In this document: positions 1,524 through 33,776 of the stretch, one piece after another | Layout of the letters: every line of letters begins with the position of its first letter | Numbering within the stretch: the first letter of the stretch is position 1 | DNA from: Bacteroidia bacterium | GTDB lineage: Bacteria; Bacteroidota; Bacteroidia; Bacteroidales; BM523 | NCBI GenBank assembly: GCA_016209245.1 | Contig: JACQWN010000071.1 | Coordinates: forward strand, 1 to 34,206 | Length of the DNA: 34,206 nucleotides | Direction of reading: 5' to 3' | Made by a program: the position numbers and the translations under genes | The notes under the pieces: model-generated | Database searches by the model: none | What the model saw: the letters and a program-made list of their open reading frames with translations, nothing else | What the model was told of the DNA's origin: nothing

Positions 1524-3965
1524 TTAAATCTTTAGCCCCATCACCGTTATATCATCAGTCTGCTCAAAAGAATGTCCTGTTTCATGATTGATAAATGACA
1601 TCCAATTTATTATAGCCGTTTCAATGATTTCTTTCTGTACATTCATTGGTTTATCAGCTACAGATAACAGTAATTCCTTTAATCTTGCCGCTTTGAATTT
1701 CTTGCCTTTTTCGCCACCAAACTGGTCGGCGAATCCGTCTGACATCAGATATAAAGTATCTCCTTTATGTAATTCTATAATATGTTCGGTGAAATCTTCC
1801 ATTTTTACATGAATAGCAACAGGCATTTTATCGCCTTTGATCTCTTTTAATTCAAACGTTTGCTTTGCAAACGTTTGAATTAAAAATAAAGGGTTGTTCG
1901 CTCCTGCAAATTGTAACCGAATGGTAGAGACGTACGGCTGTACGTCTATACCATTCGGTTTCTCAATCGCACACAAAGCAATATCCATCCCGTCTTTAAC
2001 ACTTAACTCATTTGACATATTGTCATCGCTAATATCCCGTTGATGTAACGATTCAACAATATATTTCCTTGTTTGATTTAATACTTCGCTTGTCTTTGTT
2101 ACCTCCTCCTTCTTGACAATTTCATTTAAAATGGAGATACATAACATGCTCAAAAATGCACCCGGTACGCCATGTCCGGTGCAATCGCCCACACAGAAGA
2201 TAATCCATTTGTTGACCGTTGTACCCCAATAAAAATCACCGGAAACAACATCTTTGGGCTTGAAAAGCACAAAGTAATCTATAAATGTTTCACATTTGGC
2301 AAATGTGAAACATTTAACAAGGTCAGGCAGCATCGCCTGTTGTATCCTTTTTGCATAATTAATACTATCAGTTAATTCTTTATGGATAAATGTTATTTCA
2401 TCCTTTTGTCTTGTTACCAAATCCCTTTGCGCCTGAATTTCGTCACGCTGGTGTGATATCTTTTCATTTTTTTGGCTTATTTCAATATTTTGCTTGGCAA
2501 GTAAAATATTCGCTTTTTTCTTGGCATGATATTGCCTGTAAAGCAGGACAGAAAAAATAAATATCATAATGAAGCCAAGTACAAAAGAATAAATCATAAT
2601 TCTTTGTTTCTTCATGGCTTCTTCTTTTCTGGCAAGCTCGGCCGACTGAAGCGCTTTTTCTTTATTAAGATTATCAACTTCGAGCTGTTTTTTTTCAGTT
2701 TGATATCTTGCTTCCATTACTTCTATCTGCTTGTTTTTTTGGATATTATACAGACTATCTTTTGCGTTTGTATATAAAATATGGTATTCAAGCGATTTTT
2801 TATAATCGCCCAACCCTTGATATGCTTTCGAAAGGGAAAAGTATCCAAATTTTATCTCGTTCAAAGCATTTATTGATTGTGCTAATTGAAGTGAACTTTC
2901 AGCGCAATCAACCGCTTTGTCATAATAAATTTTCCCATCGCTTTGATTCGAAGATTTATCTCCTGCGGTATTATATAACTCGGCCATATTACCCAGCACA
3001 ATAGCTTCCCCCTGCCTGTCACCTGTTTTTTTAAATAAATTATATGCCTGTGTGTATGTTTCCGTCGCCTTTTCAAAGTTTCCCTGATAAAAATAAATCA
3101 TACCGATATTAGCATAGCACATAGCAGCATCTTTTTCATCGCCTATTTCTTTATCTATTTCAAACGCCTTCAAATAGTGCTCAACAGCCGAATTATATTC
3201 ACCCTGCATCTGTATTATTAATCCAAGGTTATTATAACAATATGCCACACCTTTTTTATTACCCAGCTCTTCATTTATTTTGAGCGCTTTTTTGAAATAA
3301 TCTGCCGCCTTTGTCAAATTCCCCTGCTTTTGGTGAATACCACCGATATTGTTATAACACAATGCTATTCCTTTTTTATCCCCGAACTCCTCATATATAT
3401 TCAGCGATTTTTGATAGTTTTCGATTGCCATAGGGTATTCTCCCTGCATAAAATACACATTTCCAATATTTGAAAAACAATTTGCAACCCCCTTTTTGTC
3501 ATTCAGAGCGATATATTTTTTTAAGGCATGCTGAAATGATGAAATAGCATCGGGATAATTTCTCTGATTATAAAACACAAGGCCGGTGTTAAATGTGCAT
3601 GCTGCAATTCCATTTTTATCACTTATTTCATTATATATCCGCTTTGATTGTTCATAAAAATCAACAGCTTCACGGTACTCGTGCCTGATATCATAAATTA
3701 TCCCTATAGATTTTAAAGACAGCGCCATATAATGCTTATTTTCTGCCTTCTTTGCTATATTATATGCCTTTTGGTAATAAAATAAACTGCTATCCTGATT
3801 TGTTGCACGGTAGAGATTTCCAATATCAAGCAATGCCTTTATTTGTACTGTATCCTGATTTGTGGTTTTTAACAGAGATTTCAGGCTGTCTATTTTTGTT
3901 TGTCCCGATACACTAAATGTAAATAATATAAGGAAGAATATTTTTATTAATCTAAGTATAAACAT
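1524..3965 (-). CDS. TPR-repeat, single-pass membrane SpoIIE/PP2C-family serine phosphatase (intact paralog)
   Basis: 813-aa ORF with a signal-like N-terminus, about 9 TPR-like repeats, TM segment IMIYSFVLGFIMIFIFSVLLY and a coiled coil. PP2C motifs follow: SGDFYW, GDCTGHGVPGAF, DGMDIALC, SDGFADQFGG, TDDITVMG. Confidence 0.85.
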   Translation of the reverse strand: MFILRLIKIFFLILFTFSVSGQTKIDSLKSLLKTTNQDTVQIKALLDIGNLYRATNQDSSLFYYQKAYNIAKKAENKHYMALSLKSIGIIYDIRHEYREAVDFYEQSKRIYNEISDKNGIAACTFNTGLVFYNQRNYPDAISSFQHALKKYIALNDKKGVANCFSNIGNVYFMQGEYPMAIENYQKSLNIYEEFGDKKGIALCYNNIGGIHQKQGNLTKAADYFKKALKINEELGNKKGVAYCYNNLGLIIQMQGEYNSAVEHYLKAFEIDKEIGDEKDAAMCYANIGMIYFYQGNFEKATETYTQAYNLFKKTGDRQGEAIVLGNMAELYNTAGDKSSNQSDGKIYYDKAVDCAESSLQLAQSINALNEIKFGYFSLSKAYQGLGDYKKSLEYHILYTNAKDSLYNIQKNKQIEVMEARYQTEKKQLEVDNLNKEKALQSAELARKEEAMKKQRIMIYSFVLGFIMIFIFSVLLYRQYHAKKKANILLAKQNIEISQKNEKISHQRDEIQAQRDLVTRQKDEITFIHKELTDSINYAKRIQQAMLPDLVKCFTFAKCETFIDYFVLFKPKDVVSGDFYWGTTVNKWIIFCVGDCTGHGVPGAFLSMLCISILNEIVKKEEVTKTSEVLNQTRKYIVESLHQRDISDDNMSNELSVKDGMDIALCAIEKPNGIDVQPYVSTIRLQFAGANNPLFLIQTFAKQTFELKEIKGDKMPVAIHVKMEDFTEHIIELHKGDTLYLMSDGFADQFGGEKGKKFKAARLKELLLSVADKPMNVQKEIIETAIINWMSFINHETGHSFEQTDDITVMGLKI

Positions 3966-6950: not shown

Positions 6951-6986
6951 AAATAGAGTCCCCTCTAAAAAGCCATTTTTGTTTAA

Positions 6987-7040
6987 CCGCAGAGTTATTT
7001 CGTTAAAAAAAATTTTTTTCAACGAAATAACTCTGTGGTA
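6987..7040. terminator. Hairpin terminator candidate (19-bp stem with one G:U, A8/T9 loop)
   Basis: ACCGCAGAGTTATTTCGTT (6987..7005) pairs with AACGAAATAACTCTGTGGT (7022..7040), about 37 nt after the stop at 6950. Confidence 0.6.
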
Positions 7041-7373
7041 AAATTTTGAGTTCTTGCTCTTGTCTTATAAAAAAATACGAAAAAACACTAATATAAAATA
7101 CGTATTTTCAACAATTGACAATGCTTTAATAATAGTTTATATTTGCATTATAAAAATGTTATCTCAAATAATCATTTGTCTGAAGATGAGACACTTAAAA
7201 ATATATAGCTATAGCATAAAAATATTTATTAATAAAATTTCCATATTTTTTTAACATTTTGTAACAAAAATTTTATTTATTCGTAGAAACATATAAAAGC
7301 AAATGTAATTGTCTAAGCAATAAAAAATAAAAATACGTAAAAAATATCAGATTTACTTACAAACTAATACAAT

Positions 7374-7901
7374 ATGCTAACTCTTGAAAAAACACAAACC
7401 ATTGACGACTTCAAAAAAATTGAAGAAGGAAAATATTGTCAATTAATAAACGGAGAAATAATAATGTCACCATCACCATCAACAAAACACCAGCGCATCA
7501 GTAAAAGAATTTTTAAAAAGATTGATGCTTATGTAGAAGAAAACTATTTAGGCGAAACATTTTACGCGCCAATAGATGTTTACTTTGACGAAGAAAACGC
7601 CTTTGAACCCGATATCCTCTTTGTTTCAAAAGAAAGATTAGATATAATCAAGGAAGACGGCATCTATGGCGCTCCAGACCTTGTCATTGAAATCCTCTCG
7701 CTATCCAACAGTTATCACGACACTAAAACTAAGAAGAAAATTTATGAAAAATACGGCGTGAAAGAATACTGGCTCGTTGACCCGATGGACGGCGAAGCTA
7801 TCGGTTTCAAAAATGAAAATGGAAAATTTATTGAGTTTTACAAAGGAACCGGCGAATTTACAATTAAATTACTAAGTCTGAAAATAGAATTTGTTTTTTA
7901 A
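7374..7901 (+). CDS. Uma2 family (DUF820) PD-(D/E)xK-type endonuclease
   Basis: 175 aa. Family-typical motifs QLINGEIIMSPSPSTKHQ, EPDILFV, GAPDLVIEILSLSN, KKKIYEKYGVKEYWLVDP. Confidence 0.85.
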   Translation: MLTLEKTQTIDDFKKIEEGKYCQLINGEIIMSPSPSTKHQRISKRIFKKIDAYVEENYLGETFYAPIDVYFDEENAFEPDILFVSKERLDIIKEDGIYGAPDLVIEILSLSNSYHDTKTKKKIYEKYGVKEYWLVDPMDGEAIGFKNENGKFIEFYKGTGEFTIKLLSLKIEFVF

Positions 7902-19000: not shown

Positions 19001-19700
19001 TGATGTCTGGACTGATTTAAGCGGCATAACAGGTGGTACAGCTGCCTGTGGCGGTTCTTACTTTGAAGGTTATATTGATGCTTCATTTACTTCGTTCAGC
19101 AGGTTTGCACTTGCTAATAAAACAGGAGGCACTAATCCACTGCCCGTCGAACTACTTTCTTTTACCGCTGAATTGGACCACGGCCATGTTCAACTTGAAT
19201 GGACAACCGCCTCGGAAAAAAACAACGACTATTTTATAGTCCAAAAAACCCTCGATGGAGCATCTTTTGAAGAAGTAGCAAGAATTCCTGGCGGAGATAA
19301 TAGCAACAATGTTTTACACTATTCGGCAACAGATAATGAACCTTACTTCGGGGTTTCATATTATCAGCTTGTTCAGGTTGATTTTAACGGAAAAACTTAT
19401 TATTCCAACCTGGTTGCTATAGATAATTCAAATCCCGATTATTCGCTTGTTATCTATCCTAATCCTGCTAATAGCCAGTTTATTTATATCAACATCAAAG
19501 GTATCAGAAATCCGGGAAAAGCCGATGTTACATTCTACGATCTTTATGGCAGAAGCGTTTTATCAGATTCATTCGCTCTTTTCAGTCCGGAAACTACCGA
19601 ATTTATCGAAATTGATTTACGTGCAGGTATTTATTATACGAAGGTTACTATCGGGGAGCATGAATTTTTGACGGTAAAGTTGGTTGTTAAAGACTTCTGA
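10092..19700 (+). CDS. Giant (3202-aa) beta-helix/Ig-repeat adhesin-like T9SS cargo protein
   Basis: Single uninterrupted ORF with signal peptide ...ITALFAALLLLANSSFA and cap motif FTSIQNGNWNDGATWGN. Two PKD/Ig-like modules (CTPPSAPTISGTASVC...; ...WTITGGSVASGQGTNAITVNWG). Long tandem repeats. Pre-CTD domain NPLPVELLSFTAELDHGHVQLEWTT. CTD LVIYPNPANSQFIYINI...GIYYTKVTIG. Confidence 0.9.
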   Translation: MNFKHTYQPKFKITALFAALLLLANSSFALTFTSIQNGNWNDGATWGNASPGVQGTDWPANTDDAVIAAGHTVTLPLGIAFTINALTINATATLNANNLVFTINGNLIINGTLNNTSGTNIDTRMYGASLDGTGQITGTNMRFIFYANCAILATANITVTNINRFRIRFGANVVTNNGTITTTPNLTIVRDGVGANPTWTQGANSYLEINNVINTAQVTFNASAAGNTVVYNATGNRNITTPSASTYHHLTISGSSTKTMLASLIINGNLTINGGTLNPGANDINITIRGNWTNSGSFNPTTARWQQRVTFDGGSDQSITNSSGELFYRLTVSKGGGTLLLNNNVNINDEGNTNGFDLTMSGGNINTQGNTITLGSSLASGAGTLTRTAGQIIGKSGRWVNATATDFTFPVGTATNYRPAVFNAAAGLTNGFLIIEHISSTPGALSPNPFTDVVDLYYNTYNDGYWQLSVPGADAAVCTDFNVNLDGNGFTAFPIENGPIHFTRVLKRVSGVWQAGASTCINDVPGCPNGVTGNVVSRNLISGITGDYAFISRYNCTPPSAPTISGTASVCTNQLDVAYSCTGTASSTFTWTIPTGNGTIDAPSSGVGVQNITVDWGATGGSATVRVVENNGCSNSDPGDFAVTIHPVPTSSITGSNNVTEYTDGEPYSVTNTAGYTYTWTITGGSVASGQGTNAITVNWGASGAGNVNVVATPTGGCPNDAPVNLPVTIVSAYTSNGTGGGNWGDAASWTCLCVPSATSSIRILNGDVITRTLATQNIRNVTIDVGGILDIGDLIMTISGNLVADGELRMSGATARTLTLSGVGSTLGGTGSITATAACGTKSISISEAKTIPSSANLLITNVRISTIGANVTVTNNGTVSINCNITGSSATTSKWVNAAGSRLNIGSSLLSTGVLEASASGNTVNYNPTAAQNVKVPVTTYYNLEVTSGAATVSLIGATTVTNSLNIITGRLWIQGNSITVNDTTTVSGTLEDNDNAGTNTFTYMVVNPGGTLTTQGGIADLYTITANLIMYGGTITSTAGTIPTYNIGGTFTVPSGTATIGAGEVVFTISGATTISGTLNISSELGTKTFNDFTINTGGTFNSSVASAFVITGSLQNDGTFTSDAATYNLSGAGPPVATKTISGTSGFTFGTGIVTVSGTYNNNTTLTVPNLTVTGSLTNNSTCNVTTTFDGAGTYTNAAGSTLNVSVPDPPAIAVTTFDPSANCNLVNYNGSAAQTIRGATYCNLQVATTGGATATFSNTVLTIVNNNFTVVSGGIAAHIGVVNLTVSGSTSITGTLNFTTATTGTKSFNNVTVNAGGVWSNTINSPVTITGNIQHDGTTFTSGTGLYTLSGATKTISGSSSLSISDVTISGSYTNNYTVASGCTLSTAGYSLAGAGSLTQATNGILYIGGNASITTLTATVNPNTVYYVLAQAAQDVKATIYHHLEISKSAGTANLTGATQVNGNITISAGTLSANGANNITLYGNWINSDIFTGSTGTVVFTGTAAQTITGATTFNNFTLDKGAVSQTVTLNNNTTIGGILTFTLGKIVTGGNYAIISAGGSVSGASATTGWVQGYLQKNVALGSPVTPDFEVGGNSVYAPVNMTFASVTAAGNFIVKTTDGDHPEIASSNIIPTESLNRYWTLINSSVTFTTFNATYNFVPGDLDAGVDPTVADFNGKRFDSFSWSSINVTTRNATNTVVTGEPLAAYTTGQYRETALGISIITSDIYTRRTSADCGGNCLWNDKATWIQYRTGSITYSSSSTTVTGTGTKFTSELAVNDVLMCQTTPGTIIGTVFSITDNSILTLYANATGDGSCDYGRQAVPSTNDQIVYIGNPNVLGGGVDVTFNPASAIINQLVFYRYTTLDLISNSLTHNAGTTLTIQISATVNQPNADGQTHSWNINNGGKVKINSSLTIGSNDATATRVARVVSNYGDSLNIGTGLKFRCDAGSNAMAVLDMSGGNGVVSVAGAVTLDNGTGTINGGAAGSITGNGTKTFEVVSGATFRMNGTTVFPTGFGTYTFGSTSTTQYYQTDAQNISAQTYGHLYVEPTTNGIIHTFLAVTTTVQGNLQIGNGTNTAVVVNGSGVGTTVDVNGDISIRANTTFSNSLIPSIFAGGNWTQNGTFTAATGDLVTFDGATNSQVISASTVTFPNVTVSKGSGNTLSTSGGLTTVTTNNLTVSGGTFTAPATLNINSTATSALTLNNGGTFTAGTTININGNWNKNIGSIFNEGTGTVNFTSATTPQTIQGTAAADTFYNVTVSKSAAGNTVNTGGGIVTVTTNNLTITTGTLTAPLTLNINGNMTLASGQTLTAGTTINSKGNWTNNGGTFTPGANTVVFNGSAAQQINGTAATQTFYNFTVTKTGSTTLDVGGSTTTFNATNVTLNSNTFAAGTAATINVSSDWTNNGGTFTPGTGTVFFTGTGAQQITGTAASETFYNVTLSKTAATLLNTGGSIATVTVNNLTQTTGNFTAPATLDINGNYSLAASQTFTAGANIYVGGNWTWTNTGIFTPGTGTVTFDGSGAQQINGTQVTQTFYNFTVAKTAGTALTVGGSTTTLNSQTYTNTSGNYTAPATFIVTANVLLTAGTFTAGAATNVGGNWTNDGGTFTPGTNTVTFNGTVSQLIGGTAASQTFYNVSKSDVSVMQTTGASLATLTFNAYTQSNGDFNASTLTTFNINNTINHTAGTFTAPGGTIVKGTGNWTNSGTFVHNSGTVQFNSSLTLGGTSTYSFNNVTISGGVLTAPAANMNVAGNWTNNSSFTHNSGTVTLNGNNVQQTIGGTISTTFNNLTVNNSYPGYAVTFSAPETVSGILTLTDGHITTTATNILTLDASASVTLGGAPQDSSFIKGPMNHTVNIATSVTKIYPVGKGNSYRRMELTIDQNVVTSTTYTAELFNQNATTGGCSTLPGTIDKVSQTRYYNISQSPATGLDAASIRMYFGCSGKNDGVTDLANLAVAKTNCPDVWTDLSGITGGTAACGGSYFEGYIDASFTSFSRFALANKTGGTNPLPVELLSFTAELDHGHVQLEWTTASEKNNDYFIVQKTLDGASFEEVARIPGGDNSNNVLHYSATDNEPYFGVSYYQLVQVDFNGKTYYSNLVAIDNSNPDYSLVIYPNPANSQFIYINIKGIRNPGKADVTFYDLYGRSVLSDSFALFSPETTEFIEIDLRAGIYYTKVTIGEHEFLTVKLVVKDF
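16460..18490 (+). repeat. About 8-9 tandem ~85-95-aa coding repeats inside the giant gene
   Basis: Recurring unit GGNWTNNGGTFTPGTGTV.F.G..AQQI.GT.A..TFYN.TV.KT....L..GGS..T......L.....FTAP.TL.I.GN. Boundaries approximate. Confidence 0.7.
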
Positions 19701-19740: not shown

Positions 19741-20099
19741 TAATCTTTAACGAAAAATGCTGATTATAACGGATTGCTGTGCTGATTGGTTTTTGTTAAA
19801 CATCTACGATGTATCGAATCTCCAGGTTCGCATTTGCTTTTACAAGACCTGAACCGCTACGCGGTATATTGCCCGTAGGGCATAAGATTTTGTAAAAGCA
19901 TAATGCCAAATTACAATGCATACCTTGTAGAGGTTTAACGTCGAACTGCTCACCACAGATATAGGGCTTTAACCCAAATTTGTGAATAATACAGGTTAAA
20001 TGAAAATATTTTTATTCGGTCAAATTTTTTTAGAAAGAAAGTCTATCAACCGTAAATGGATAATTCCCTCCGAATTATCAAACGAAACGGCATCCTTTG

Positions 20100-20458: not shown

Positions 20459-21049
20459 TCATATAGACCCTCTACGAATAAATACTTCGCTTAAATCTAT
20501 TTCCAAATCTTTAAAAATACTAACTTTCACTTTATCTGTATAAGAATATATTTTTCCAGATTGGTATTTACCTTCCTTATCTAATTTGTAAATATGTAAT
20601 AATTCTTCCTCAGGCTGAACAATCCAATATTCTTTAACACCCGCCTCCTGATATAATAAAAATTTTTCATGAATATCTTTCTGTTTTGTAGAAGGGGATA
20701 AGACTTCAACAATTAAATCAGGTGCGCCAAGACATCCTTTATCATCAATTTTTTTGGGATCGCATACTACAACAATATCCGGTTGTACGACAGTATAAAT
20801 ATCTTTATCATCAGTTCCTTTTTTTGGCAGGCGGACATCAAAAGGAGCATAAAAAACTTCACATTTATTTTTTTTTCCTATAAAATTATATATTCTTCCG
20901 AATATAGTTCTTGAAACGCGTTGATGAAAAGTAGATGGAGCAGGGCTCATTTCATATACACGGCCATTTATCAGCTCATAGTATTTTCCATCATCCCATT
21001 TCAGATAATCAGCATACGTATAAAGCTGTGCAGAATCCATAGCTTCCAT
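20459..21049 (-). CDS. Uma2 family (DUF820) endonuclease
   Basis: 196 aa. Motifs YELINGRVYEMSPAPSTFHQ, QPDIVVVC, GAPDLIVEVLSPSTKQKDIHEKFLLYQEAGVKEYWIVQP. Confidence 0.85.
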   Translation of the reverse strand: MEAMDSAQLYTYADYLKWDDGKYYELINGRVYEMSPAPSTFHQRVSRTIFGRIYNFIGKKNKCEVFYAPFDVRLPKKGTDDKDIYTVVQPDIVVVCDPKKIDDKGCLGAPDLIVEVLSPSTKQKDIHEKFLLYQEAGVKEYWIVQPEEELLHIYKLDKEGKYQSGKIYSYTDKVKVSIFKDLEIDLSEVFIRRGSI

Positions 21050-21084: not shown

Positions 21085-22638
21085 TTACATTTCAACTACA
21101 ATAATCGTTTTCTCATTTTGGGCTACCTCTTCCCATTTTATTCTCTGCTCCCATGAAACTTCGGATGATGGTTTAAGTTCAAACAGAATTAAATAGCCTC
21201 TATTTATTCCAAGAGTATCTAAATAACGGCTGATCTGGTCTAACCCTTCTTCATAAACCCATTTATCATATTTTATTTTAAGTTCCAATACAAAAATATC
21301 ATTTCCGTAATATATTGTCAGGTCGGTTCTACCGCGACCTAGTGCCATTTCGCGTTCAATCCTTCCTCCTGCGTTTATGACCCTTTGCAGAAATGCCATG
21401 AGCATTAATTGGTGCCCGGCTTCACGGTAATTCATCATATTTATCCAATGTTCAGAATGACGACGATAAAATTTCTGGTATTCTTTCAGTAAAGTATCCA
21501 TATCCAAACTGCCGTCGCCCCGTATAAACCAACATAATTCCATCTTTGCGGCTATGCTTTCCTGCACGTCATAATTTAAAGTCCTTGGTATAATTTCCGC
21601 ATAAATCTTATTTGAAAACGTTATTCCGTTTTGAGTTCTTAATATTATACCCAAATCCAGACAATACTGTAAATCATTATTAAAGTTGTCATAGATAAGC
21701 TCTTCACCGTTAATTATAGCTTTAACAATCGGTTTTACCCTTTCTTCCTGTAACTTATCGAGCAAGCTATCGAGATGTGTATCCCTTCGTTGAATGAGGT
21801 TTTCTTTTGCGATGTCAACAATTTCAGGAGTCACCGGTAAGGAATAATCATGCTTCAGAATACGAGCTGTAATTTCGTGTGCCATAGCATTGACAAGCCA
21901 GGGTTGTCCGCCGGTATAATCGTATATTTTGTAAATAGCTTCATCAGGAAAATCTTGTTTTGTTTCACTTATATACTGCCCTAGCAAATCGGTAATATGT
22001 TGCTGTGTGAAATTTTTCAACATAAAAGATTCAGCTTTGATATTGAACGGCGAACCGGAACCTAATGACAATTCCGGCTTCCTGATTTTTTGCTTGTAAT
22101 CCCGGATATCACGTAAACCGACTAATGCAACAGAAACAGGAAATTTATCAGGTCTGAGAGTAAATCCGCTTCGCAATTGTCGTAATACGGATATCAAAAT
22201 TTTATCAATAAGCGAATCAATTTCATCAACAAGTAAAACTATTTTTTTTGGCATACTGCCCGACCATTCGACCAAATAATCTTTCAATGATTTATTTTTA
22301 AATGCTTCCGGTTCAGGTGGTAAATATTCTTTTGATAAAACAAGCGTCGAAGCATCATATAATGCTTTGAGCATTTTCTGATTAGCTGATTTTTCAGATA
22401 TACCCGGTACGCCGGCTTCTTCGACTGTAAATGTTACGGCAATATAGTTACCTTCATCGTTAATATTTTTTGCTAAAGAATGAAGCAAGGTTGTCTTCCC
22501 TGATTGACGTGGTGCATGAATTAAGAAATACTGTTTGTTTTGGATAAGAGAATATATTTCCTCTTTTAAACCCCGTAAAGGTTCAACCATATAATGCCAT
22601 TCAGGGCGGCAATGTCCGGTAGTATTAAATATTCGCAT
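21085..22638 (-). CDS. AAA-type ATPase fused to a C-terminal PD-(D/E)xK (PDDEXK_9/DUF1703-like) nuclease domain
   Basis: 517 aa. Walker A HAPRQSGKTTLL, Walker B-like IVLLVDEIDSL, C-terminal GRGRTDLTIYYGNDIFVLELKIK (D...ELK nuclease motif). Confidence 0.8.
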   Translation of the reverse strand: MRIFNTTGHCRPEWHYMVEPLRGLKEEIYSLIQNKQYFLIHAPRQSGKTTLLHSLAKNINDEGNYIAVTFTVEEAGVPGISEKSANQKMLKALYDASTLVLSKEYLPPEPEAFKNKSLKDYLVEWSGSMPKKIVLLVDEIDSLIDKILISVLRQLRSGFTLRPDKFPVSVALVGLRDIRDYKQKIRKPELSLGSGSPFNIKAESFMLKNFTQQHITDLLGQYISETKQDFPDEAIYKIYDYTGGQPWLVNAMAHEITARILKHDYSLPVTPEIVDIAKENLIQRRDTHLDSLLDKLQEERVKPIVKAIINGEELIYDNFNNDLQYCLDLGIILRTQNGITFSNKIYAEIIPRTLNYDVQESIAAKMELCWFIRGDGSLDMDTLLKEYQKFYRRHSEHWINMMNYREAGHQLMLMAFLQRVINAGGRIEREMALGRGRTDLTIYYGNDIFVLELKIKYDKWVYEEGLDQISRYLDTLGINRGYLILFELKPSSEVSWEQRIKWEEVAQNEKTIIVVEM

Positions 22639-22755: not shown

Positions 22756-24363
22756 TCAATGCTCAATAATTAATAGAGCATAAATTATTTGCTTGCCTGT
22801 ATTAATACAAACAATATAAGTTCCGTCAGCAACATCTTTAATATCAAGCGGCTCATACGAACTAACTATATTGGTCTTAATAATTTCATTCCCAAGGATA
22901 TCATATATAGATATAAATGATTTCTCAGCGCCTGAAATGCTCACATAATCGGCAGCGGGATTTGGAAATATTCTTATATCGGTTTTTCCAGCTAATTCAT
23001 CTATATCTACTAAAGTTGAGCTTATCTGAATATCATCAACCATAAAAATGAATGCATCGCTTGAAACGCATTGAATAGCAATATAAACAGGTTGATTATC
23101 ATAAGCGGAAAGGTCATAGTTTGCCTGTGTCCATGTAATTGGTGCTTCAATATAGCTTCCGGTGGAAATGAATGTAAAGCTTGCAGGGTCGTTATTTGTG
23201 GTGGAAATACCAACTTTATATCGTTCAAGACCCCATGTATTTTTATAAGTTTTTACCCAAAAGCTTAATGAAGTGTTGGTACCAAGCTCCAGTCGCGGTG
23301 ATATAATCCAGTCGTGGTTAGGCAAGTAGTCGGTTAGCTCACTGAAACAGGCGCCAAATCTTTGCCCGCCATGTGGTTGTAATGCGGCATCACCAGAGGC
23401 AGAGGGAATGGTTTGTGAAGGATTAAAAGCCATAAAAGCGCCGGTTCCGCCTTCATTGGCAAAATCATAATCATTTGAACCGTATTGAGTCTCTCCATCC
23501 TGGTCATTAACAGTCCATGGCTCAAAGTCGTATGAAAAATCAACGCAACTCTCAAAATTTAATGAAAACCCTGCCGACATTGTCAAAACTGTAATATATC
23601 CGGTTTTAGTCTCAGTATCACTTTGTGTGCCATCGGAAACAGTCAGACTGACATCATAAGTCCCGGGCGTAGTATAAGTAACACTTGGATTTTCTAACGT
23701 TGATGATGATGGATTTACTCCCTGAAATGTCCATGTCCATTGAGTCGTATTTAATATAGTTGTATTAGTAATCTGGATTGTTTCGTTAACTACCAGCTTC
23801 TTTTTACTAGATATAAATTCAGCATCAAATGTTAATGGCGGACAACCCGAAGCCCCGGAATAAAGCTCGGAAGCTGAAACAGCACCAATTTCATTGGTTA
23901 TTCTATTCGGACATATTAAATATACTGTAGGAAAATAAGTTATTTGATATAAATCGGCAATTGTAGCATTATCAATTATAGGGTAAGGTGTCCCTGTTAC
24001 CCAATCTCCTTGCGTATTGGTGCCTGTTCCCTGCAAATCGGCGAGAGTAGTGGTAGCATCGCCTTCGATAAAAAATACCATCAATTCATTTGTGCCCGGA
24101 GGACCATATTGATTATATAAATCTCTTAAAGCATGCGAATTGTGATAGTTCCAGCAAGGACTGCACCATGTAGCAAAAATATCCATAATAACCGGTTTAC
24201 CATCATTCAGATAATCATAAAGATGATAAGTATTACCATTAATATCGGTAGCAGTAAAATCGGGGCCGGTGCTCCCGTTCGGTAATTGACTGTATAAATT
24301 ATTTATACAAGCTGCTATTACCAGTTTAACATAAATAAAAACATATAACTTCTTCATAAACAT
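22756..24363 (-). CDS. Secreted thioredoxin-like (TlpA/redoxin) - PKD - choice-of-anchor-J-like fusion protein with T9SS CTD
   Basis: 535 aa with signal peptide. Redoxin motif GKPVIMDIFATWCSPCW. PKD-like PSVTYTTPGTYDVSLTVSDGTQSD. Middle domain W.VNDQDG...NDWIISPRLELGTNTSLSFWVKTY...ERYKVGISTT. CTD IRIFPNPAADYVSISG...DGTYIVCINTG. Confidence 0.85.
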   Translation of the reverse strand: MFMKKLYVFIYVKLVIAACINNLYSQLPNGSTGPDFTATDINGNTYHLYDYLNDGKPVIMDIFATWCSPCWNYHNSHALRDLYNQYGPPGTNELMVFFIEGDATTTLADLQGTGTNTQGDWVTGTPYPIIDNATIADLYQITYFPTVYLICPNRITNEIGAVSASELYSGASGCPPLTFDAEFISSKKKLVVNETIQITNTTILNTTQWTWTFQGVNPSSSTLENPSVTYTTPGTYDVSLTVSDGTQSDTETKTGYITVLTMSAGFSLNFESCVDFSYDFEPWTVNDQDGETQYGSNDYDFANEGGTGAFMAFNPSQTIPSASGDAALQPHGGQRFGACFSELTDYLPNHDWIISPRLELGTNTSLSFWVKTYKNTWGLERYKVGISTTNNDPASFTFISTGSYIEAPITWTQANYDLSAYDNQPVYIAIQCVSSDAFIFMVDDIQISSTLVDIDELAGKTDIRIFPNPAADYVSISGAEKSFISIYDILGNEIIKTNIVSSYEPLDIKDVADGTYIVCINTGKQIIYALLIIEH

Positions 24364-26025: not shown

Positions 26026-26105
26026 ACTCATCGGATGACTTATTTATTAAGGATATCATGCAATTCAAGCTAATAATCAATTAATTAGAAAGTCATCCGA
26101 TGAGT
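26026..26105. terminator. 16-bp perfect inverted repeat (48-nt spacer) between convergent genes; bidirectional terminator candidate
   Basis: ACTCATCGGATGACTT (26026..26041) pairs with AAGTCATCCGATGAGT (26090..26105). An outer 7-bp pair TGTCTGT (26001..26007) / ACAGACA (26129..26135) encloses it. Confidence 0.45.
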
Positions 26106-28839: not shown

Positions 28840-29541
28840 TTAAATTTTGAATCCTACAATCAATACATCGTCAACCTGTTCATAAGATTGGTCTGTTTCA
28901 GGATTAATAAATGACTTCCATTGCTCAAATTTATTATTCAGAATTTCTCTTTGCTCGAACATCGGCTTTTGAGATATTGAGCATAAAATTTTTTTTAAGC
29001 CCTGAAGTTTTATTTTTTCACCGTTTTCCCCTCCGAACTGGTCGGCATAACCGTCGGAAAACATATAAAAAGTATCACTGTCGGAATAAGTTAATTCATG
29101 CAGGGTAAATGGTTTCATATTATTAGAGATGCTGATTGGCATTTTATCCGCCTTCACTTCAATTAATTGCTTTTCGCAATTTTTCATGTTTGTTTCGGCG
29201 GATACATCGCCTTTTATTTCCTTTAATAACGCTTGACCCGCAAGGTCGCCTGAATCAGCGTTATTGCCTGCGCCTGCGCTACTGACTTTATTACAGTGAC
29301 CTTGCGGGACAGGCGTTATTAAATATAAAGAATTGTTAGCTCCTGCAAACTTTAATAATTTTTTTTCTTTTTCAATGGAGCATATACTCATAACTATTCC
29401 GTCTTTGGCTTCTTCCTCGTTTCCTGTTTGGTGTAAAGCTTTAATTATATTTTCACGCATATTATTCAGCACGGCATCAGGGCTTGTGATATTATTTTTG
29501 ATTACTATGTCATTTAAAAAGGCAATGCCGAGCATGCTCAT
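28840..29541 (-). CDS. C-terminal fragment of a disrupted TPR/SpoIIE (PP2C) phosphatase gene
   Basis: The listed ORF starts at an internal Met. The frame is open upstream to about 29637 and encodes ...TSATIVAVADCTGHGIPGAFMSMLG, with no start codon before the DCTGHG motif. Also MFSDGYADQFGG and VDDVLIVGFKI. Confidence 0.7.
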   Translation of the reverse strand: MSMLGIAFLNDIVIKNNITSPDAVLNNMRENIIKALHQTGNEEEAKDGIVMSICSIEKEKKLLKFAGANNSLYLITPVPQGHCNKVSSAGAGNNADSGDLAGQALLKEIKGDVSAETNMKNCEKQLIEVKADKMPISISNNMKPFTLHELTYSDSDTFYMFSDGYADQFGGENGEKIKLQGLKKILCSISQKPMFEQREILNNKFEQWKSFINPETDQSYEQVDDVLIVGFKI

Positions 29542-29589
29542 AAAAGCGCCGGGAATGCCATGTCCGGTACAGTCGGCAACGGCAACTAT

Positions 29590-29718
29590 AGTCGCACTAG
29601 TGTCTTGACAATTTAAAAATGAAACATTGAAAACAATTTTTTAATCCAGACCTCACAGGTTTCTAAAACCTGTGAGGTCTTAAAATTAAATTGTCGCAAC
29701 ACTAGTCCGGGTGCGACT
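29590..29718. repeat. Imperfect palindromic insertion carrying in-frame stops, inside the PP2C domain
   Basis: Outer inverted repeats 29590..29614 and 29688..29718. Central perfect 14-bp hairpin AGACCTCACAGGTT (29648..29661) / AACCTGTGAGGTCT (29667..29680). Direct repeat TATAGTCGCAC (29587..29597) / TATGAGTCGCAC (29751..29762), 165 nt apart. Confidence 0.7.
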
Positions 29719-31515
29719 TTGAGAAGTACCTTGATTATCGGCAAGACTGCTATGAGTCGCACCCTGACTATCGGCACTATTAACGGTGGTAATCCAATAA
29801 AAATCGCCGCTGACAATATCTTTTGGAAGATGCAATACAAAGCTGAAAGGCAGCAATCTTGAAATTTCCTGCATTGGCGTGAGAACTGCCGATTGGATAT
29901 ATCTTGCATATTCAATGCTTTCAGTAATTTCCCTGTTTTGCTCAATTATTTTATCATGCTGCTTTTTTAAATCTTTATTTGCAATTATAAGCTGCTCGGC
30001 CTGAGTTTGAATTTCTTCTTTTTGTTGCATAATTTCAGCATTGGCAAATTCTAATTGTGTGTTCTTTTTTTCAATTTCCGTTTTTTGGCGGGCAAGTAAT
30101 TTATTGGCTTTTTTCTTTTGCAATATCAGGCGGTAAAGAAAACCTGAAAATATAATAACCAGCAACAAGCCGCCAACCACAAATAAAATAACAATTCGCT
30201 GCTTTTTATTTTCCGCTTCTTTTTTTGCTATGTCTGCCTTTTTTAAAGCATTATCTTTATTAAGCATTTCAATTTCATGCTGTTTTTTTTCATTCTGATA
30301 TTTTGCCTCCATTTCATGGTAAGTGCGGGAGCTCTCCTCGTTATATATACTGTCGTACATTATTAAAAACAAATGTTCATATTTATAGGCGTTCTCAAAA
30401 TCGGATATTGCTGCATAGCAATCCGAAAGGTTATTATAAGCATCTTTAATCTCACTTTTTGCTCCCACTTCTTTAGAGTAGCTTAAGCTTTTTTCCAGGG
30501 TTTCGATTGCCTTATTGTATTTTTTCATTTTAGTATAAACCATTCCCATATTATTATAACATGATGCCAACCCCTGCCGGTCGTTCCTCGCTTCATTATG
30601 ACTGATAGCTTCCTCAAAATTTTTGATCGCCTCTTCATATTTACCCGTATTTTTATTTATTAATCCTATATTATTCAAAGTCCTGGCCAGCCCTGGCTTA
30701 TCGTTTCTTTTTCTGTTAATTTCCAATGCTTTTTTATATTTTTCAATGGCTTTGTCATATTCATTTATTTTGAAATAAATACTGCCCAGGTTATTTAATC
30801 CGTATGCGACACCCACCGTATCATGTATCTTATCGCAAAGTTCAATTGCCTGTTCCAGGTACTCGATGCCTTGCGGATAGTTTTTCATATAAATAGAGAT
30901 AATTCCGATATTGTTGACACATTTGACGGTTCTTTGCGTATCGCCGATTTGTTCCGATTGCTTAATTGATTTTTGGAAATAATCAATCGCCTTGGCATAA
31001 TCGCCTTTCCGGTAATATATACCGCCGATATTGTTATATACATCGGCTATACTTGGATGATTTTCTGTCTTAATATAATTCTCCAATGATTGAAGACTGT
31101 ATTTTAAGGCATCATCATAAGAACCGGTTTCATCTTTAATCATGCTTATATATAACAGGCATTTACCTTTATAATTTAAGCAGGTTTTCTTTTCAATAGC
31201 GTTTTTTGAGTCTTCAGCTATCTTTTCTGCAAGCTCGTATGCCTGATTATAATATTCAATCGCCTTTTCAGGTTCTTGCTTTTCATGCAAATCGGCTATT
31301 TCGATTAAAATTTTTATTTTATTAGTAACTGCCTGCATTTTCTTCGAAATTGTTAAAAGACTGTCTATTTTTTTTTGCTGGCTTTGGCCGGATATTGTAG
31401 CTACGATGGATATGATTAAAATAAAAGCTGTAAGAAACTTTTGAAAGTATCTATTATAATTCATTATGTTATATAATTTGGTAGCCATACATTTATCTAT
31501 TAAGCATACATTCAA
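29686..31515 (-). CDS. N-terminal fragment of the disrupted TPR/SpoIIE phosphatase gene (TPR repeats, TM, coiled coil, start of PP2C domain)
   Basis: TPR-like repeats, TM VILFVVGGLLLVIIFSGFLY, coiled coil, then LPKDIVSGDFYWITTVN followed by insertion-derived residues and a stop at 29686. The likely true start is M18 (MNYNRYFQKFLTAFILIISIVATISG) at 31464. Confidence 0.75.
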   Translation of the reverse strand: MNVCLIDKCMATKLYNIMNYNRYFQKFLTAFILIISIVATISGQSQQKKIDSLLTISKKMQAVTNKIKILIEIADLHEKQEPEKAIEYYNQAYELAEKIAEDSKNAIEKKTCLNYKGKCLLYISMIKDETGSYDDALKYSLQSLENYIKTENHPSIADVYNNIGGIYYRKGDYAKAIDYFQKSIKQSEQIGDTQRTVKCVNNIGIISIYMKNYPQGIEYLEQAIELCDKIHDTVGVAYGLNNLGSIYFKINEYDKAIEKYKKALEINRKRNDKPGLARTLNNIGLINKNTGKYEEAIKNFEEAISHNEARNDRQGLASCYNNMGMVYTKMKKYNKAIETLEKSLSYSKEVGAKSEIKDAYNNLSDCYAAISDFENAYKYEHLFLIMYDSIYNEESSRTYHEMEAKYQNEKKQHEIEMLNKDNALKKADIAKKEAENKKQRIVILFVVGGLLLVIIFSGFLYRLILQKKKANKLLARQKTEIEKKNTQLEFANAEIMQQKEEIQTQAEQLIIANKDLKKQHDKIIEQNREITESIEYARYIQSAVLTPMQEISRLLPFSFVLHLPKDIVSGDFYWITTVNSADSQGATHSSLADNQGTSQSRTRTSVATI

Positions 31516-32228: not shown

Positions 32229-33776
32229 ATGAAAAAAAATATTATGAAAAGGTTACCAATTAATCGTCAGGAATTTTCCGAGTTAATAAATGATAACTGT
32301 ATTTATGTTGATAAAACAGAATATATTTATCAATTATTAGAACATAAATATTATTTCTTATCACGACCCCGCAGGTTCGGAAAGTCATTACTCGTAAATA
32401 CTTTAAAAGAAATTTTTCTTTCTAATAAGGAATTATTTAAAGGACTTTGGATTTATGATAAAATTGAGTGGAGAAAATATCCTGTTATTAAAATTTCTTT
32501 TGCTAATATATCTCACAAAACACTTGGTTTAGAAAAAGCTATTCATAACGAACTTAATGATATTGCAAAGGAATATAATATTAAATTTTCAAAACAGGAC
32601 TACCCTTTAAAATTCAAGGAATTAATAAGAAAATTAGCCAACAAAGAAAAAGTTGTTGTTTTGATAGACGAATATGATAAACCGATAATTGATTATATTG
32701 ATGACATTGAGAAAGCAGAAAAAAACAGAGAGATTCTTAAAAATTTCTATTCAATAGTAAAAGATAGTGATAGCTATTTAAGGTTCTTTTTCGTAACAGG
32801 AGTATCTAAGTTCAGTAAAGTATCAATTTTTTCTGATTTGAATAATTTAACGGATCTTACCATAAACAAAAATTTTTCAACAATGATTGGATGGACACAG
32901 GAAGAAGCAGAAAAATATTTTCCTGAATATATTGAAAAAGTTCAGGAAGATTATGCTGATATATATACAGATATTATGCCTGTTATAAAAGAATGGTATA
33001 ATGGATATTCATGGGATGGAAAAAATTTTGTTTATAATCCTGTATCATTGATAAATTTATTTAGTCAACGAATTTTTAATAATTACTGGTTTGAAACCGG
33101 TACTCCTACATTTCTAACAAAATTTATTAAAAAAGAAAATTATACGGTTTTTGATATAGAAAAAAGTATGGCTACAACCGAACTTTTAGATAAATATGAA
33201 TTAAAAAACATAACATTGCTTCCTTTACTGTTTCAAAGCGGATATCTAACAATAAAAGAATTTGATATTTCTACCGGTATTATTACATTAGACTATCCTA
33301 ACAGAGAAGTTGCAAATTCTATGTCAACACATATTCTTTCTGAATTAACTATTGGAAAACTTGACAAAACAGGGGTTTTATTACTTCAAATGACAGAGAC
33401 TTTTAACAACAATATTATTGAAAAATTTATTAAACATATTAATACCCTTTTTAAAAATATTCCTTACACAATAATTGAAGACAGTGAAAAATATTTCCAT
33501 TCAATATTTTATATTGTAATGAAGTTGGTGGGTTATAAAATTGAATCAGAAATTTTAACAATAGACGGCAGAGTTGACGCAGTTGTTTTTACTGATGATA
33601 ATATTTTTATAATAGAATTTAAAATTAACCAGGGTGCTGATAAGGCAATAAAACAAATAAAAGAAAAAAATTATGCTGAAAAATATGCAGACGATAAACG
33701 AAAAAAAACTTTAATAGGAATAAATTTTAATACCGAAGCTAAAAGAGTTGATGATTATAAACATGAAACATTTTAA
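32229..33776 (+). CDS. Predicted AAA-ATPase (PF09820-like) with C-terminal PD-(D/E)xK nuclease domain (PDDEXK_9/DUF1703)
   Basis: 515 aa. Canonical N-terminus LPINRQEFSELINDNCIYVDKTEYIYQLLE...YFLSRPRRFGKSLLVNTL, Walker B VVVLIDEYDKP, C-terminal DGRVDAVVFTDDNIFIIEFKINQGADKAIKQIKEKNYAEKY. Confidence 0.9.
   Translation: MKKNIMKRLPINRQEFSELINDNCIYVDKTEYIYQLLEHKYYFLSRPRRFGKSLLVNTLKEIFLSNKELFKGLWIYDKIEWRKYPVIKISFANISHKTLGLEKAIHNELNDIAKEYNIKFSKQDYPLKFKELIRKLANKEKVVVLIDEYDKPIIDYIDDIEKAEKNREILKNFYSIVKDSDSYLRFFFVTGVSKFSKVSIFSDLNNLTDLTINKNFSTMIGWTQEEAEKYFPEYIEKVQEDYADIYTDIMPVIKEWYNGYSWDGKNFVYNPVSLINLFSQRIFNNYWFETGTPTFLTKFIKKENYTVFDIEKSMATTELLDKYELKNITLLPLLFQSGYLTIKEFDISTGIITLDYPNREVANSMSTHILSELTIGKLDKTGVLLLQMTETFNNNIIEKFIKHINTLFKNIPYTIIEDSEKYFHSIFYIVMKLVGYKIESEILTIDGRVDAVVFTDDNIFIIEFKINQGADKAIKQIKEKNYAEKYADDKRKKTLIGINFNTEAKRVDDYKHETF

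What the first reader, a model, noticed from the sequence alone, without database searches (positions are those of the whole stretch)
28840..31515. TPR/SpoIIE phosphatase paralog split inside its catalytic domain by a 165-nt palindromic insertion
ORFs 29686..31515 and 28840..29541 are in the same frame and together mirror the intact paralog at 1524..3965. The break falls between the SGDFYW and DCTGHG motifs of the PP2C domain. The intervening DNA has a perfect 14-bp hairpin (29648..29680), flanked by ~25-30-nt imperfect inverted repeats (29590..29614 / 29688..29718). It carries four in-frame stops. A direct repeat GTGCGACT(C)ATAG (coding orientation) occurs at both sides, exactly 165 nt (55 codons) apart. 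Deleting one repeat copy plus the intervening DNA gives ...FYWITTVNSADSQGAT-IVAVADCTGHGIPGAF..., with family-typical spacing. The pattern is that of a MITE-like or REP-like palindromic element with a target-site-duplication-like repeat. The downstream fragment has no start codon before the metal-binding DCTGHG motif. The usual DGMD motif also reads DGIV here, consistent with decay, although reversible excision between the direct repeats is conceivable.
Basis: seen in the sequence. Interest (0 to 1): 0.68.

Follow-up and report, generated by a model that had tools for sequence, protein, structure and literature searches.

The report
IS630-type MITE splitting a phosphatase gene
A 103-bp non-autonomous transposon of the IS630 family has inserted at a TA inside the catalytic domain of one of two TPR-SpoIIE phosphatase paralogues of an uncultured Bacteroidota bacterium and broken the gene, which is an ordinary kind of gene inactivation, although the element's central hairpin is a palindrome found in several phyla.

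Summary
The two ORFs are in one frame, four in-frame stops lie between them, and the hairpin, inverted repeats and direct repeat are all present. The "165-nt palindromic insertion" is two things of different age.

(1) A 103-bp MITE at 29600..29702. It is flanked by a duplicated TA (29598-99 and 29703-04) inside an ACTAGT site. Its terminal inverted repeats (GTGTYNNGACAATTTAA) and its right subterminal sequence match the ends of about 1186-bp elements in metagenomes. Those elements encode an HTH ORF plus a DDE_3 ORF, which NCBIfam names "IS630 family transposase". They also match 109-113-bp MITEs. All four stops lie in the MITE.

(2) About 60 nt of older, open, in-frame coding DNA. It is partly a direct and partly an inverted copy of the neighbouring loop codons.

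Removing the MITE plus one TA (105 nt) gives one 856-codon ORF. The gene also carries Val in place of an Asp conserved in 118 of 119 homologues, which fits decay. No close relative exists in the databases searched (best NadA 74%, best phosphatase 44%), so orthologues and empty sites could not be checked.

The MITE's perfect 15-bp hairpin is a separate curiosity: a REP-like palindrome found in more than 120 loci across Bacteroidota, Chloroflexota, Moduliflexus and KSB1.

The parts
29600..29702 (-). 103-bp IS630-family MITE. In the gene's orientation it reads GTGTTGCGACAATTTAA ... TTAAATTGTCAAGACAC. It has no ORF and carries all four in-frame stops. The IS 'left end' lies on the 5' side of the phosphatase coding strand.
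   Evidence: The TIR pattern finds more than 120 metagenome loci, including about 1186-bp pairs that enclose HTH+DDE_3 ORFs and 109-113-bp MITEs. Ends align.
29703..29704 (.). TA target-site duplication, copy on the gene's 5' side (within gGAC-TA-GTGT).
   Evidence: same junction form (C-TA-GTGT ... ACAC-TA-G) in metagenome copies
29598..29599 (.). TA target-site duplication, copy on the gene's 3' side. The reconstructed target is GGAC-TA-GTGC, i.e. ACTAGT.
29686..29702 (.). MITE terminal inverted repeat corresponding to the IS left end (+ strand TTAAATTGTCGCAACAC).
29600..29625 (.). MITE terminal inverted repeat plus subterminal ATGAAACAT (+ strand), corresponding to the IS right end. It matches the last codons and stop of the transposase gene in full-length copies.
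   Evidence: ATGTTTCAT..TTAAATTGTCA..ACAC shared with L129 and L196
29648..29680 (.). Perfect 15-bp hairpin with a 3-nt loop, AGACCTCACAGGTTT-cta-AAACCTGTGAGGTCT. It is a member of a REP-like palindrome family found in several phyla and forms the core of the MITE.
29705..29754 (-). Older in-frame, stop-free loop expansion (with 29590-29597 it makes up 60 nt). It encodes ...HSSLADNQGTSQSRTRTS... and contains a diverged 33-nt-offset direct copy and an inverted copy of the adjacent codons.
   Evidence: D1, I2; inverted repeat score 13 against a shuffle maximum of 11 in 300; gaps in more than 95% of 119 homologues
29755..29770 (.). Arm 1 of 'hairpin A' (coding strand TAGTCAGGGTGCGACT, codons D-S-Q-G-A-T). 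It includes the upstream copy of the 8-nt direct repeat (29755-29762).
29703..29718 (.). Arm 2 of 'hairpin A' (coding strand AGTCGCACCCGGACTA). Its 3' end supplies the CTAG in which the MITE sits.
29590..29597 (.). Downstream copy of the 8-nt direct repeat (coding strand GTGCGACT), 165 nt from the upstream copy and 60 nt from it once the MITE is removed.
29686..31515 (-). N-terminal gene fragment: signal/TM segment, TPR repeats, TM helix, coiled coil, and the first PP2C strand up to SGDFYW. It ends at a TAA inside the MITE's TIR (last four residues VATI are MITE-encoded).
28840..29541 (-). C-terminal gene fragment as an ATG ORF. The reading frame is open from 29637, and DCTGHG lies upstream of the ATG. 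It is the rest of the PP2C/SpoIIE domain.
29392..29403 (-). DGIV in place of the family's DGMD. The Asp is replaced by Val and the Met by Ile.
   Evidence: D in 118/119, M in 117/119; invariant M141 and D142 in alignment A5
1524..3965 (-). Intact paralogue (813 aa, TPR + SpoIIE), used as the reference for the broken gene.

Best explanation
The gene at 28840..31515(-) was a single TPR-TM-coiled-coil-PP2C (SpoIIE family) phosphatase gene. A 103-bp miniature inverted-repeat transposable element derived from an IS630-family insertion sequence inserted into the TA of an ACTAGT site. That site lies in the turn of the beta-hairpin that carries the two first metal-binding motifs (SGDFYW and DCTGHG). 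As is typical of IS630/Tc1-mariner elements, the TA was duplicated. A transposase supplied in trans by a full-length IS630-type element elsewhere in the genome would have moved it by cut and paste; this step is inferred. The MITE has stops in all three forward frames. Translation therefore ends four codons into it, and the catalytic domain is cut in two, leaving a 609-codon N-terminal ORF and a C-terminal remnant without a canonical start. The gene is most likely a recent pseudogene. The target site lay in an older, in-frame, 60-nt palindromic or duplicated expansion of the same loop. That is why the whole stretch looked like one 165-nt element flanked by direct repeats. The MITE keeps only about 25 nt of the IS left end and about 35 nt of the right end. 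Its core is a 33-nt perfect hairpin belonging to a palindrome family that is widespread in other genomes.
For: Shown:
- Both arms fit ACTAGTGTNNNGACAATTTAA. In about 20 loci two inverted copies lie 1169-1190 bp apart; in 7 loci they lie 109-113 bp apart.
- The 1186-bp units encode a 144-aa HTH_32/HTH_23 ORF and a 219-aa DDE_3 ORF. NCBIfam NF033545 'IS630 family transposase' matches them over profile positions 2-111 and 123-296, with 137.5 bits against a cut-off of 100.
- Similarity extends beyond the search pattern. The window's ATGTTTCAT next to the right TIR equals the last transposase codons in L129 and L196.
- TA lies on both sides of GTGT...ACAC in a C-TA-G context. This is the TA duplication of the IS630 family (PMC2170065) and the 5'-CTAG-3' preference named in the title of Tenzen & Ohtsubo 1991, listed in that paper's references.
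- Deleting 29600..29704 (105 nt) gives one ORF of 856 codons.
- All four stops lie inside the MITE.
- In an AlphaFold model of the paralogue (pLDDT 86.7), the insertion point maps to the two-residue turn between strands 58-65 and 68-76.
- Signs of decay: 5 mismatches at 68 columns that are at least 90% conserved, against a median of 1 in 119 homologues, including D to V.

Inferred: mobilisation in trans, recency, and loss of function.
Against: - Only one copy is visible in the 34-kb contig, and no transposase gene is in the window. Multi-copy status and a partner IS in this genome are therefore unproven.
- No empty site or orthologue could be found.
- None of the metagenome MITEs with these TIRs carries the hairpin core, so this MITE variant has no sibling in the data seen.
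- Both gene fragments are still free of further stops, so retained function of the N-terminal sensor part cannot be excluded.
- The origin of the 60-nt older segment is unresolved.
Confidence: 0.85

Rival explanations
1. One reading: the whole 165 nt is one MITE/REP-like palindromic element, and its target-site duplication is the 13-nt repeat GTGCGACT(C)ATAG.
For: The 8-nt repeat is exact and 165 nt apart. Deleting 165 nt keeps the frame. The whole stretch folds strongly.
Against: TIRs with family-wide relatives delimit a 103-bp unit with its own TA duplication. The other 60 nt are open in frame and are copies of the neighbouring codons. The flanks beyond the TIRs have no match in 240 fetched loci. 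Spacing after the 165-nt deletion is still 5 residues longer than in the compared homologues.
Confidence: 0.06
2. A regulated or reversible switch: the MITE (or the 165 nt) is excised at a useful frequency and restores an active phosphatase. Alternatively, the two halves are separately expressed and work as a two-gene arrangement.
For: Both possible deletions (105 nt and 165 nt) restore one ORF. Both fragments are still free of extra stops in a 34%-GC genome. From general knowledge, strong palindromes flanked by short direct repeats favour slippage deletions, as in transposase-independent precise excision of Tn10.
Against: [quoted passage not shown] From general knowledge of Tc1/mariner elements, repair of such staggered cuts usually leaves a footprint, so exact restoration is not the default outcome. 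The downstream half has no ATG/GTG/TTG before the DCTGHG metal-binding motif. The copy lacks a near-invariant Asp. No promoter-like or terminator-like site was found in the MITE. No orthologue shows the split.
Confidence: 0.05
3. Assembly artefact: a repeat-induced chimeric join placed repeat DNA inside an intact gene.
For: Elements with these TIRs often sit at contig ends in metagenome assemblies, so they do disturb assembly.
Against: The insertion has exact biological junctions (TA duplication in CTAG and complete TIRs at both ends), and the flanks continue the same gene in the same frame. A chimera would not be expected to reproduce a target-site duplication.
Confidence: 0.03

Closest known systems
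RUP (repeat unit of pneumococcus), the 107-bp MITE of Streptococcus pneumoniae mobilised by IS630-Spn1
   Same: About 100 bp, no ORF, TIRs similar to those of an IS630-family element, insertion at TA, and the ability to inactivate genes it lands in (PMC2229807).
   Different: Different TIR sequence and host phylum. RUP is known as a family of about 100 copies in one genome, whereas only one copy is visible here. This element carries an unrelated palindromic core.
IS630 / ISY100 (IS630-Tc1-mariner superfamily insertion sequences)
   Same: TA duplication, the CTAG target preference reported for IS630, and an HTH + DDE transposase in the full-length relatives that share these ends.
   Different: The window element is a 103-bp deletion derivative without a transposase. 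The relatives found encode the transposase as two ORFs of 144 and 219 aa; whether a frameshift joins them was not examined.
Nezha and other cyanobacterial IS630-derived MITEs (recalled from memory, not checked here)
   Same: MITEs whose TIRs match IS630-family elements and which use TA targets.
   Different: Sequence, host, and the palindromic core.
Rickettsia palindromic elements (RPE) and other MITEs that are read through in frame
   Same: A palindromic small element inside a conserved protein-coding gene, at a surface loop (PMC2229807).
   Different: RPEs stay open and are translated as part of the host protein. This MITE has stops in all three forward frames. Only the older 60-nt expansion and the other two coding palindromes (29222-29323 and 1915-1960) behave in the RPE manner, and they look locally generated rather than imported.
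REP / REPIN elements with RAYT transposases
   Same: The core hairpin alone resembles a REP. It is a 30-40-nt palindrome, mostly intergenic, lies between co-directional or convergent genes, and occurs many times in some genomes.
   Different: No GTAG or CGTC tag, no recurrent neighbouring gene, and the same sequence in several phyla, whereas REPs are usually lineage-specific.

Membership tests
IS630-family MITE | Terminal inverted repeats homologous to those of autonomous IS630-family elements | tested here: met
   Both arms fit the pattern that also brackets about 1186-bp elements encoding HTH + DDE_3 / NF033545 ORFs. Alignments A1 and A2 show invariant CTAGTGT, GACAATTTA and ACACTAG, plus shared subterminal ATGTTTCAT.
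IS630-family MITE | Duplication of a TA target dinucleotide | tested here: met
   TA at 29598-99 and 29703-04, directly outside GTGT...ACAC. The bases outside CTAG vary among copies, so the duplicated unit is the TA inside CTAG.
IS630-family MITE | Small size and no transposase gene | tested here: met
   103 bp with stops in all three forward frames. The seven metagenome MITEs span 109-113 bp measured from the A of ACTAGT to the T of ACTAGT, and 117 bp was computed by hand for the window on a slightly different span, 29593-29709.
IS630-family MITE | Several copies in the same genome and an autonomous partner able to mobilise it | not testable with these tools
   Only a 34-kb contig is available. 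It holds one copy and no transposase. The contig's proteins are not on record in the look-up of encoding contigs, and no fetched locus shares other DNA with the window.
IS630-family MITE | Evidence of insertion from an empty-site allele or orthologue | not testable with these tools
   No close orthologue exists: best phosphatase hit 42-44% identity, best NadA hit 74%.
REP/BIME (RAYT-associated) | Short imperfect palindrome with a GTAG or CGTC tag, associated with a RAYT gene | tested here: not met
   The hairpin arms have no such tag, and no recurrent neighbouring gene was found in 120 loci.
In-frame translated palindromic element (RPE-like) | The element is open in the host gene's frame | tested here: not met
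   The MITE has four stops in the host frame. The older 60 nt are open in frame.
SpoIIE/PP2C phosphatase (PF07228) | Domain match and conserved motifs | tested here: inconclusive
   The intact paralogue passes (56.4 bits against a cut-off of 25). The C-terminal fragment alone scores 21 bits, below the cut-off. The public record of the 265-aa fragment carries PF07228. SGD, DCTGHG, SDGYADQFGG and DD are present, but the subfamily's DGMD reads DGIV. PDB homologue 6k4e_A matches at E 6e-20.
Self-splicing intron, intein or known structured RNA | Match to a described RNA family, or an intein ORF | tested here: not met
   No Rfam match at gathering score in the window. Only sub-threshold chance hits appear in 29400-29950. 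103 bp cannot hold an intein.

The most novel reading that the evidence does not exclude
The MITE's core, (G/A)ACCTCACAGGTTT-loop-AAACCTGTGAGGT(C/T), may be an undescribed palindromic module shared across phyla. It could itself be mobile, or it could be repeatedly recruited. It occurs in more than 120 loci of Bacteroidota, Chloroflexota, Moduliflexus and KSB1 with unrelated flanks. It forms the centre of MITEs with at least four unrelated kinds of terminal repeats. It can also sit in frame inside a real gene, where an orthologue keeps a perfect palindrome through two compensatory arm changes. It might act as a portable bidirectional terminator. Alternatively it could be a hairpin that inserts at the tips of DNA hairpins, or one that is kept perfect by arm-to-arm correction.
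Probability: 0.3. Interest if true: 0.6.

Novelty: new member of a known kind. Interest (0 to 1): 0.3.

Why it matters
For annotation, the two ORFs should be called one disrupted gene (a pseudogene) with a mobile_element feature at 29600..29702, not two proteins. The public gene call that starts at an ATT inside the MITE is an artefact. The case shows how a MITE that lands in an older palindromic loop expansion can pass for a larger element with a long target duplication. It adds a Bacteroidota IS630-type MITE with defined ends (GTGTYNNGACAATTTAA, TA in ACTAGT) that can be used to mask or find such elements in metagenomes, where they often break contigs. The wider point, if it holds, is the hairpin core: one 33-nt palindrome shared by distant phyla and by unrelated MITE families.

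Tried and rejected
- Exact look-up of the contig's Mpl-like protein and of the C-terminal fragment found nothing on record.
- A protein search with the restored catalytic half found no close orthologue (best 42-44%), so split and intact alleles could not be compared. NadA likewise reached only 74%.
- Rfam gave nothing at gathering score for the window or for 20 hairpin loci, and only chance-level hits at the E-value threshold.
- A literature search for the hairpin sequence returned only unrelated primer matches. A search for RAYT/REPIN in Bacteroidetes gave nothing applicable.
- BLAST of the insertion's flanks against the 120 hairpin loci gave no shared sequence beyond the hairpin and its AT-rich borders. 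The idea that the whole 165 nt is a repeat family was therefore dropped.
- I looked for a gene that recurs next to the hairpin (a RAYT or other transposase). The largest cluster covered 6 of 120 loci.
- Promoter and terminator scans of the MITE region found no terminator-like site and no promoter-like site within the MITE.
- A viral-contig scan for the hairpin gave one hit only.
- Searches for the arms of the other coding palindromes elsewhere in the window found only the palindromes themselves.
- I considered and rejected an intron, an intein, a CRISPR repeat, an attC site and an IS200/IS605-type element: the size is wrong, Rfam gives no match, and the TA/TIR architecture points elsewhere.
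Full report
**Observation**

The minus-strand ORFs 29686..31515 and 28840..29541 are in the same frame. The translation of 28840..31515 has exactly four internal stops, all between residues ...SVATI and KIVFNVSF.... Pfam finds TPR repeats in the N-terminal fragment and a SpoIIE domain in the paralogue. The C-terminal fragment alone scores just below the SpoIIE cut-off.

The perfect hairpin has 15-nt arms (29648-29662 / 29666-29680). The flanking 24-nt inverted repeats are 29593-29616 / 29686-29709. The 8-nt direct repeat lies 165 nt apart. The stretch folds with z = -9.8 against shuffles.

**What the inserted DNA is**

I derived a pattern common to the two 24-nt arms, ACTAGTGTNNNGACAATTTAA, and used it to scan metagenome contigs. 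Allowing three mismatches for the partner arm gave two size classes:
- About 20 loci carry two inverted copies 1169-1190 bp apart.
- Seven loci carry copies 109-113 bp apart.

The 1186-bp unit of L129 (932-2117) encodes a 144-aa ORF with HTH_32, HTH_23 and HTH_29 domains and a 219-aa ORF with DDE_3. NCBIfam's 'IS630 family transposase' model covers the two ORFs consecutively, and L196 gives the same result.

The alignments of element ends show invariant CTAGTGT..GACAATTTA on the left and TTAAATTGTCA..ACACTAG on the right. Outside my search pattern, the window's ATGTTTCAT next to the right repeat matches the last transposase codons of L129 and L196. The window element is therefore an internal-deletion derivative, a MITE, of an IS630-family insertion sequence.

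**Boundaries and target**

In all copies the junctions read C-TA-GTGT ... ACAC-TA-G, while the bases outside CTAG vary. IS630-family elements duplicate a TA, as shown in vitro for ISY100 (PMC2170065). IS630 itself prefers the TA within 5'-CTAG-3' (Tenzen & Ohtsubo 1991, cited there).

In the window the element proper is 29600..29702 (103 bp), with TA at 29598-99 and 29703-04. The reconstructed target is GGAC-TA-GTGC. MITE plus one TA is 105 nt. Removing it gives one ORF of 856 codons that reads ...SGDFYWITTVNSADSQGATHSSLADNQGTSQSRTRTSATIVAVADCTGHG.... All four stops are in the MITE, which has stops in all three forward frames.

**The remaining 60 nt**

After removal of the MITE, two repeats stand out:
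- An inverted repeat, TAGTCAGGGTGCGACT / AGTCGCACCCGGACTA, scores 13 against a maximum of 11 in 300 shuffles.
- A diverged direct copy sits at an offset of 33 nt.

One arm of the inverted repeat is the native D-S-Q-G-A-T codons. The MITE's CTAG lies at the 3' end of the other arm, so this expansion existed before the MITE arrived. Its origin is unresolved: local duplication plus inverted duplication, for instance by template switching, is an inference. The 8-13-nt repeat GTGCGACT(C)ATAG bounds this older expansion plus the MITE and is not the MITE's target duplication.

More than 95% of 119 homologues have gaps across the 25 extra loop residues. The paralogue and P0004, P0006 and P0013 each have 13 residues between W and D. 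The 165-nt deletion leaves 18, so 'family-typical spacing' is not quite right.

**Where it sits in the protein, and the state of the gene**

An AlphaFold model of the paralogue's catalytic domain (41-sequence alignment, mean pLDDT 86.7) puts SGDFYW in strand 58-65 and DCTGHG at the end of strand 68-76. A two-residue turn lies between them, and the insertion point maps to that turn. The only solved sequence homologue is 6k4e_A, a putative serine phosphatase.

The broken copy differs from 119 homologues at 5 of 68 columns that are at least 90% conserved. The median among homologues is 1, and only one homologue has more. The differences include D to V (D in 118 of 119) and M to I in the DGMD motif. 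This fits relaxed constraint or a copy that was already altered. Whether the Asp is catalytic is not shown.

Neither fragment has further stops in a 34%-GC gene, which suggests (as an inference) that the insertion is recent. The downstream fragment has no ATG, GTG or TTG before DCTGHG. The public call (P0001) begins at an ATT inside the MITE.

**Context**

The window is a whole 34,206-bp contig from an uncultured Bacteroidota. It encodes four proteins with T9SS sorting domains, NadA, an Mpl-like Mur ligase and two Uma2 nucleases, and no transposase. The best NadA hit is 74% identical, and the named hits are Bacteroidales or Bacteroidetes MAGs. Orthologue comparison, empty-site evidence and copy number in the genome were therefore out of reach.

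**The hairpin core**

An exact scan of GTDB genomes for CTCACAGGTTT-N1-6-AAACCTGTGAG found more than 120 loci in Flavobacteriaceae, Chitinophagaceae, Cytophagia, Chloroflexota, Moduliflexus/UASB14 and KSB1. Its properties are:
- The flanks are unrelated, and the outer stem pairs covary.
- The sites are mostly intergenic: 55 between co-directional genes, 20 between convergent genes and 4 between divergent genes.
- No gene recurs next to it.
- It is absent from Rfam and from the papers searched.
- None of the metagenome MITEs with IS630-type ends carries it.
- About 12 of 124 hairpins sit in the centre of MITE-like elements with other, mutually unrelated terminal repeats.

In L060 the hairpin lies in frame inside a Peripla_BP_2 gene. 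At the orthologous site one relative has a decayed copy and another a strongly decayed one. A third has a perfect palindrome with two compensatory arm changes, AAACCTTCCAGGTTT..AAACCTGGAAGGTTT. This is a separate phenomenon that I could not identify.

**Mechanism and rivals**

The best explanation is cut-and-paste insertion of an IS630-family MITE at TA/CTAG, which truncates the protein and splits the PP2C domain (confidence 0.85). The rivals are less likely:
- A single 165-nt element with a 13-nt duplication conflicts with the family-defined ends and with the coding nature of the extra 60 nt.
- A reversible switch or a functional two-gene arrangement has no positive evidence. It faces the footprint-prone excision chemistry, the lack of a start codon and the lost Asp.
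- An assembly artefact is unlikely given exact TIRs and a target duplication, but only reads can exclude it.

**Comparison with known systems and verdict**

The element works like RUP of S. pneumoniae (107 bp, IS630-Spn1-related TIRs, TA targets; PMC2229807). It meets the testable defining features of an IS630-derived MITE: TIR homology, TA duplication, small size and lack of a transposase. Copy number and a partner IS could not be tested. It is a new member of a known kind, and gene disruption by a MITE is ordinary. Interest is low to moderate (0.3). The only unusual aspect is the cross-phylum hairpin that forms its core.

Noticed in passing
window 29648-29680; loci L001-L120, L241: The MITE's core hairpin, (G/A)ACCTCACAGGTTT-N3-5-AAACCTGTGAGGT(C/T), occurs in more than 120 loci of GTDB genomes from Bacteroidota, Chloroflexota, Moduliflexus/UASB14 and KSB1. 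The flanks are unrelated and the outer stem pairs covary. Sites are mostly intergenic between co-directional or convergent genes, and no gene recurs next to it. It has no Rfam family. It was found in only one viral contig.
   Followed up: partly
L016 3404-3559, L020 886-1046, L071 367-528, L111 3596-3756, L094 3735-3905, L066 1904-2078, L080 5237-5397, L081 3166-3337, L018 1661-1883: The same hairpin sits at the centre of MITE-like elements (about 155-225 bp) with at least three other, mutually unrelated kinds of terminal inverted repeats. One example is TTAAGTACATGACAAAAATT in Flavobacteriia. The window's IS630-type MITE is a fourth kind.
   Followed up: partly
L060 499-523 (gene 159-953, minus strand); L242, L243, L244 at about 720-740: The hairpin lies in frame (KPHRFSKPVRF) in a variable linker of a Peripla_BP_2 'helical backbone metal receptor' of a Hanamia MAG. 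At the same site, one orthologue has a decayed copy and another a strongly decayed one. A third has a perfect palindrome with two compensatory arm changes, CCTCACAGG/CCTGTGAGG to CCTTCCAGG/CCTGGAAGG.
   Followed up: partly
window 29222-29323: A second palindrome lies inside the broken gene's C-terminal fragment: 26-nt arms, 92% complementary, 50-nt loop, fold z = -4.9. It is open in frame (34 codons...TPVPQGHCNKVSSAGAGNNADSGDLAGQAL...) and sits at a beta-turn where most homologues have gaps. One arm covers the conserved LYLIT codons, so it looks like a local inverted duplication rather than an imported element. It is followed by an apparent duplication of the LKEIKGD / LIEVKAD motif.
   Followed up: partly
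window 1915-1960: The intact paralogue also carries a coding palindrome: 21-nt arms, 95% complementary, 4-nt loop. It encodes KPNGIDVQPYVSTIRL, about 10 residues longer than the family consensus. In the model it forms a low-confidence loop between strands 141-149 and 163-170.
   Followed up: partly
L121-L240 (e.g. L129 932-2117, L196 683-1868, L163 4940-5050, L166 5501-6309): The IS630-type family with ends GTGTNNNGACAATTTAA is abundant in JGI metagenomes. It appears as full copies of about 1186 bp with two transposase ORFs (144 and 219 aa), as 109-113-bp MITEs, as intermediate sizes (150-400 and 807 bp), and as a cluster of three MITEs in L166. Many copies lie at contig ends, meaning they break assemblies.
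   Followed up: partly
window 10092-19700: A giant 3202-aa ORF has internal repeats with start-to-start spacings of 243 and 300 nt (longer multiples also occur) and a T9SS C-terminal sorting domain. Three other T9SS-tailed proteins lie at 286-1506, 4557-6950 and 22756-24363.
   Followed up: no
window 7374-7901 and 20459-21049; 21085-22638 and 32229-33776: The contig encodes two Uma2-family putative restriction endonucleases and two AAA-ATPase-type proteins, one with a PD-(D/E)XK nuclease domain. This looks like defence or selfish-gene content.
   Followed up: no
window 6982-7043, 19835-19900, 26026-26105: Three strong intergenic inverted repeats lie just downstream of ORF ends and may be terminators (no scan was run on them). 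Their sequences are unrelated to the MITE's hairpin, so that hairpin is not one of this contig's other intergenic palindromes.
   Followed up: no
window 1-75 and 637-711: A 75-nt direct repeat (95% identical) lies 636 nt apart at the contig start, upstream of and inside the Ig-like/T9SS ORF 286-1506. This points to repeated domains that run off the contig end.
   Followed up: no
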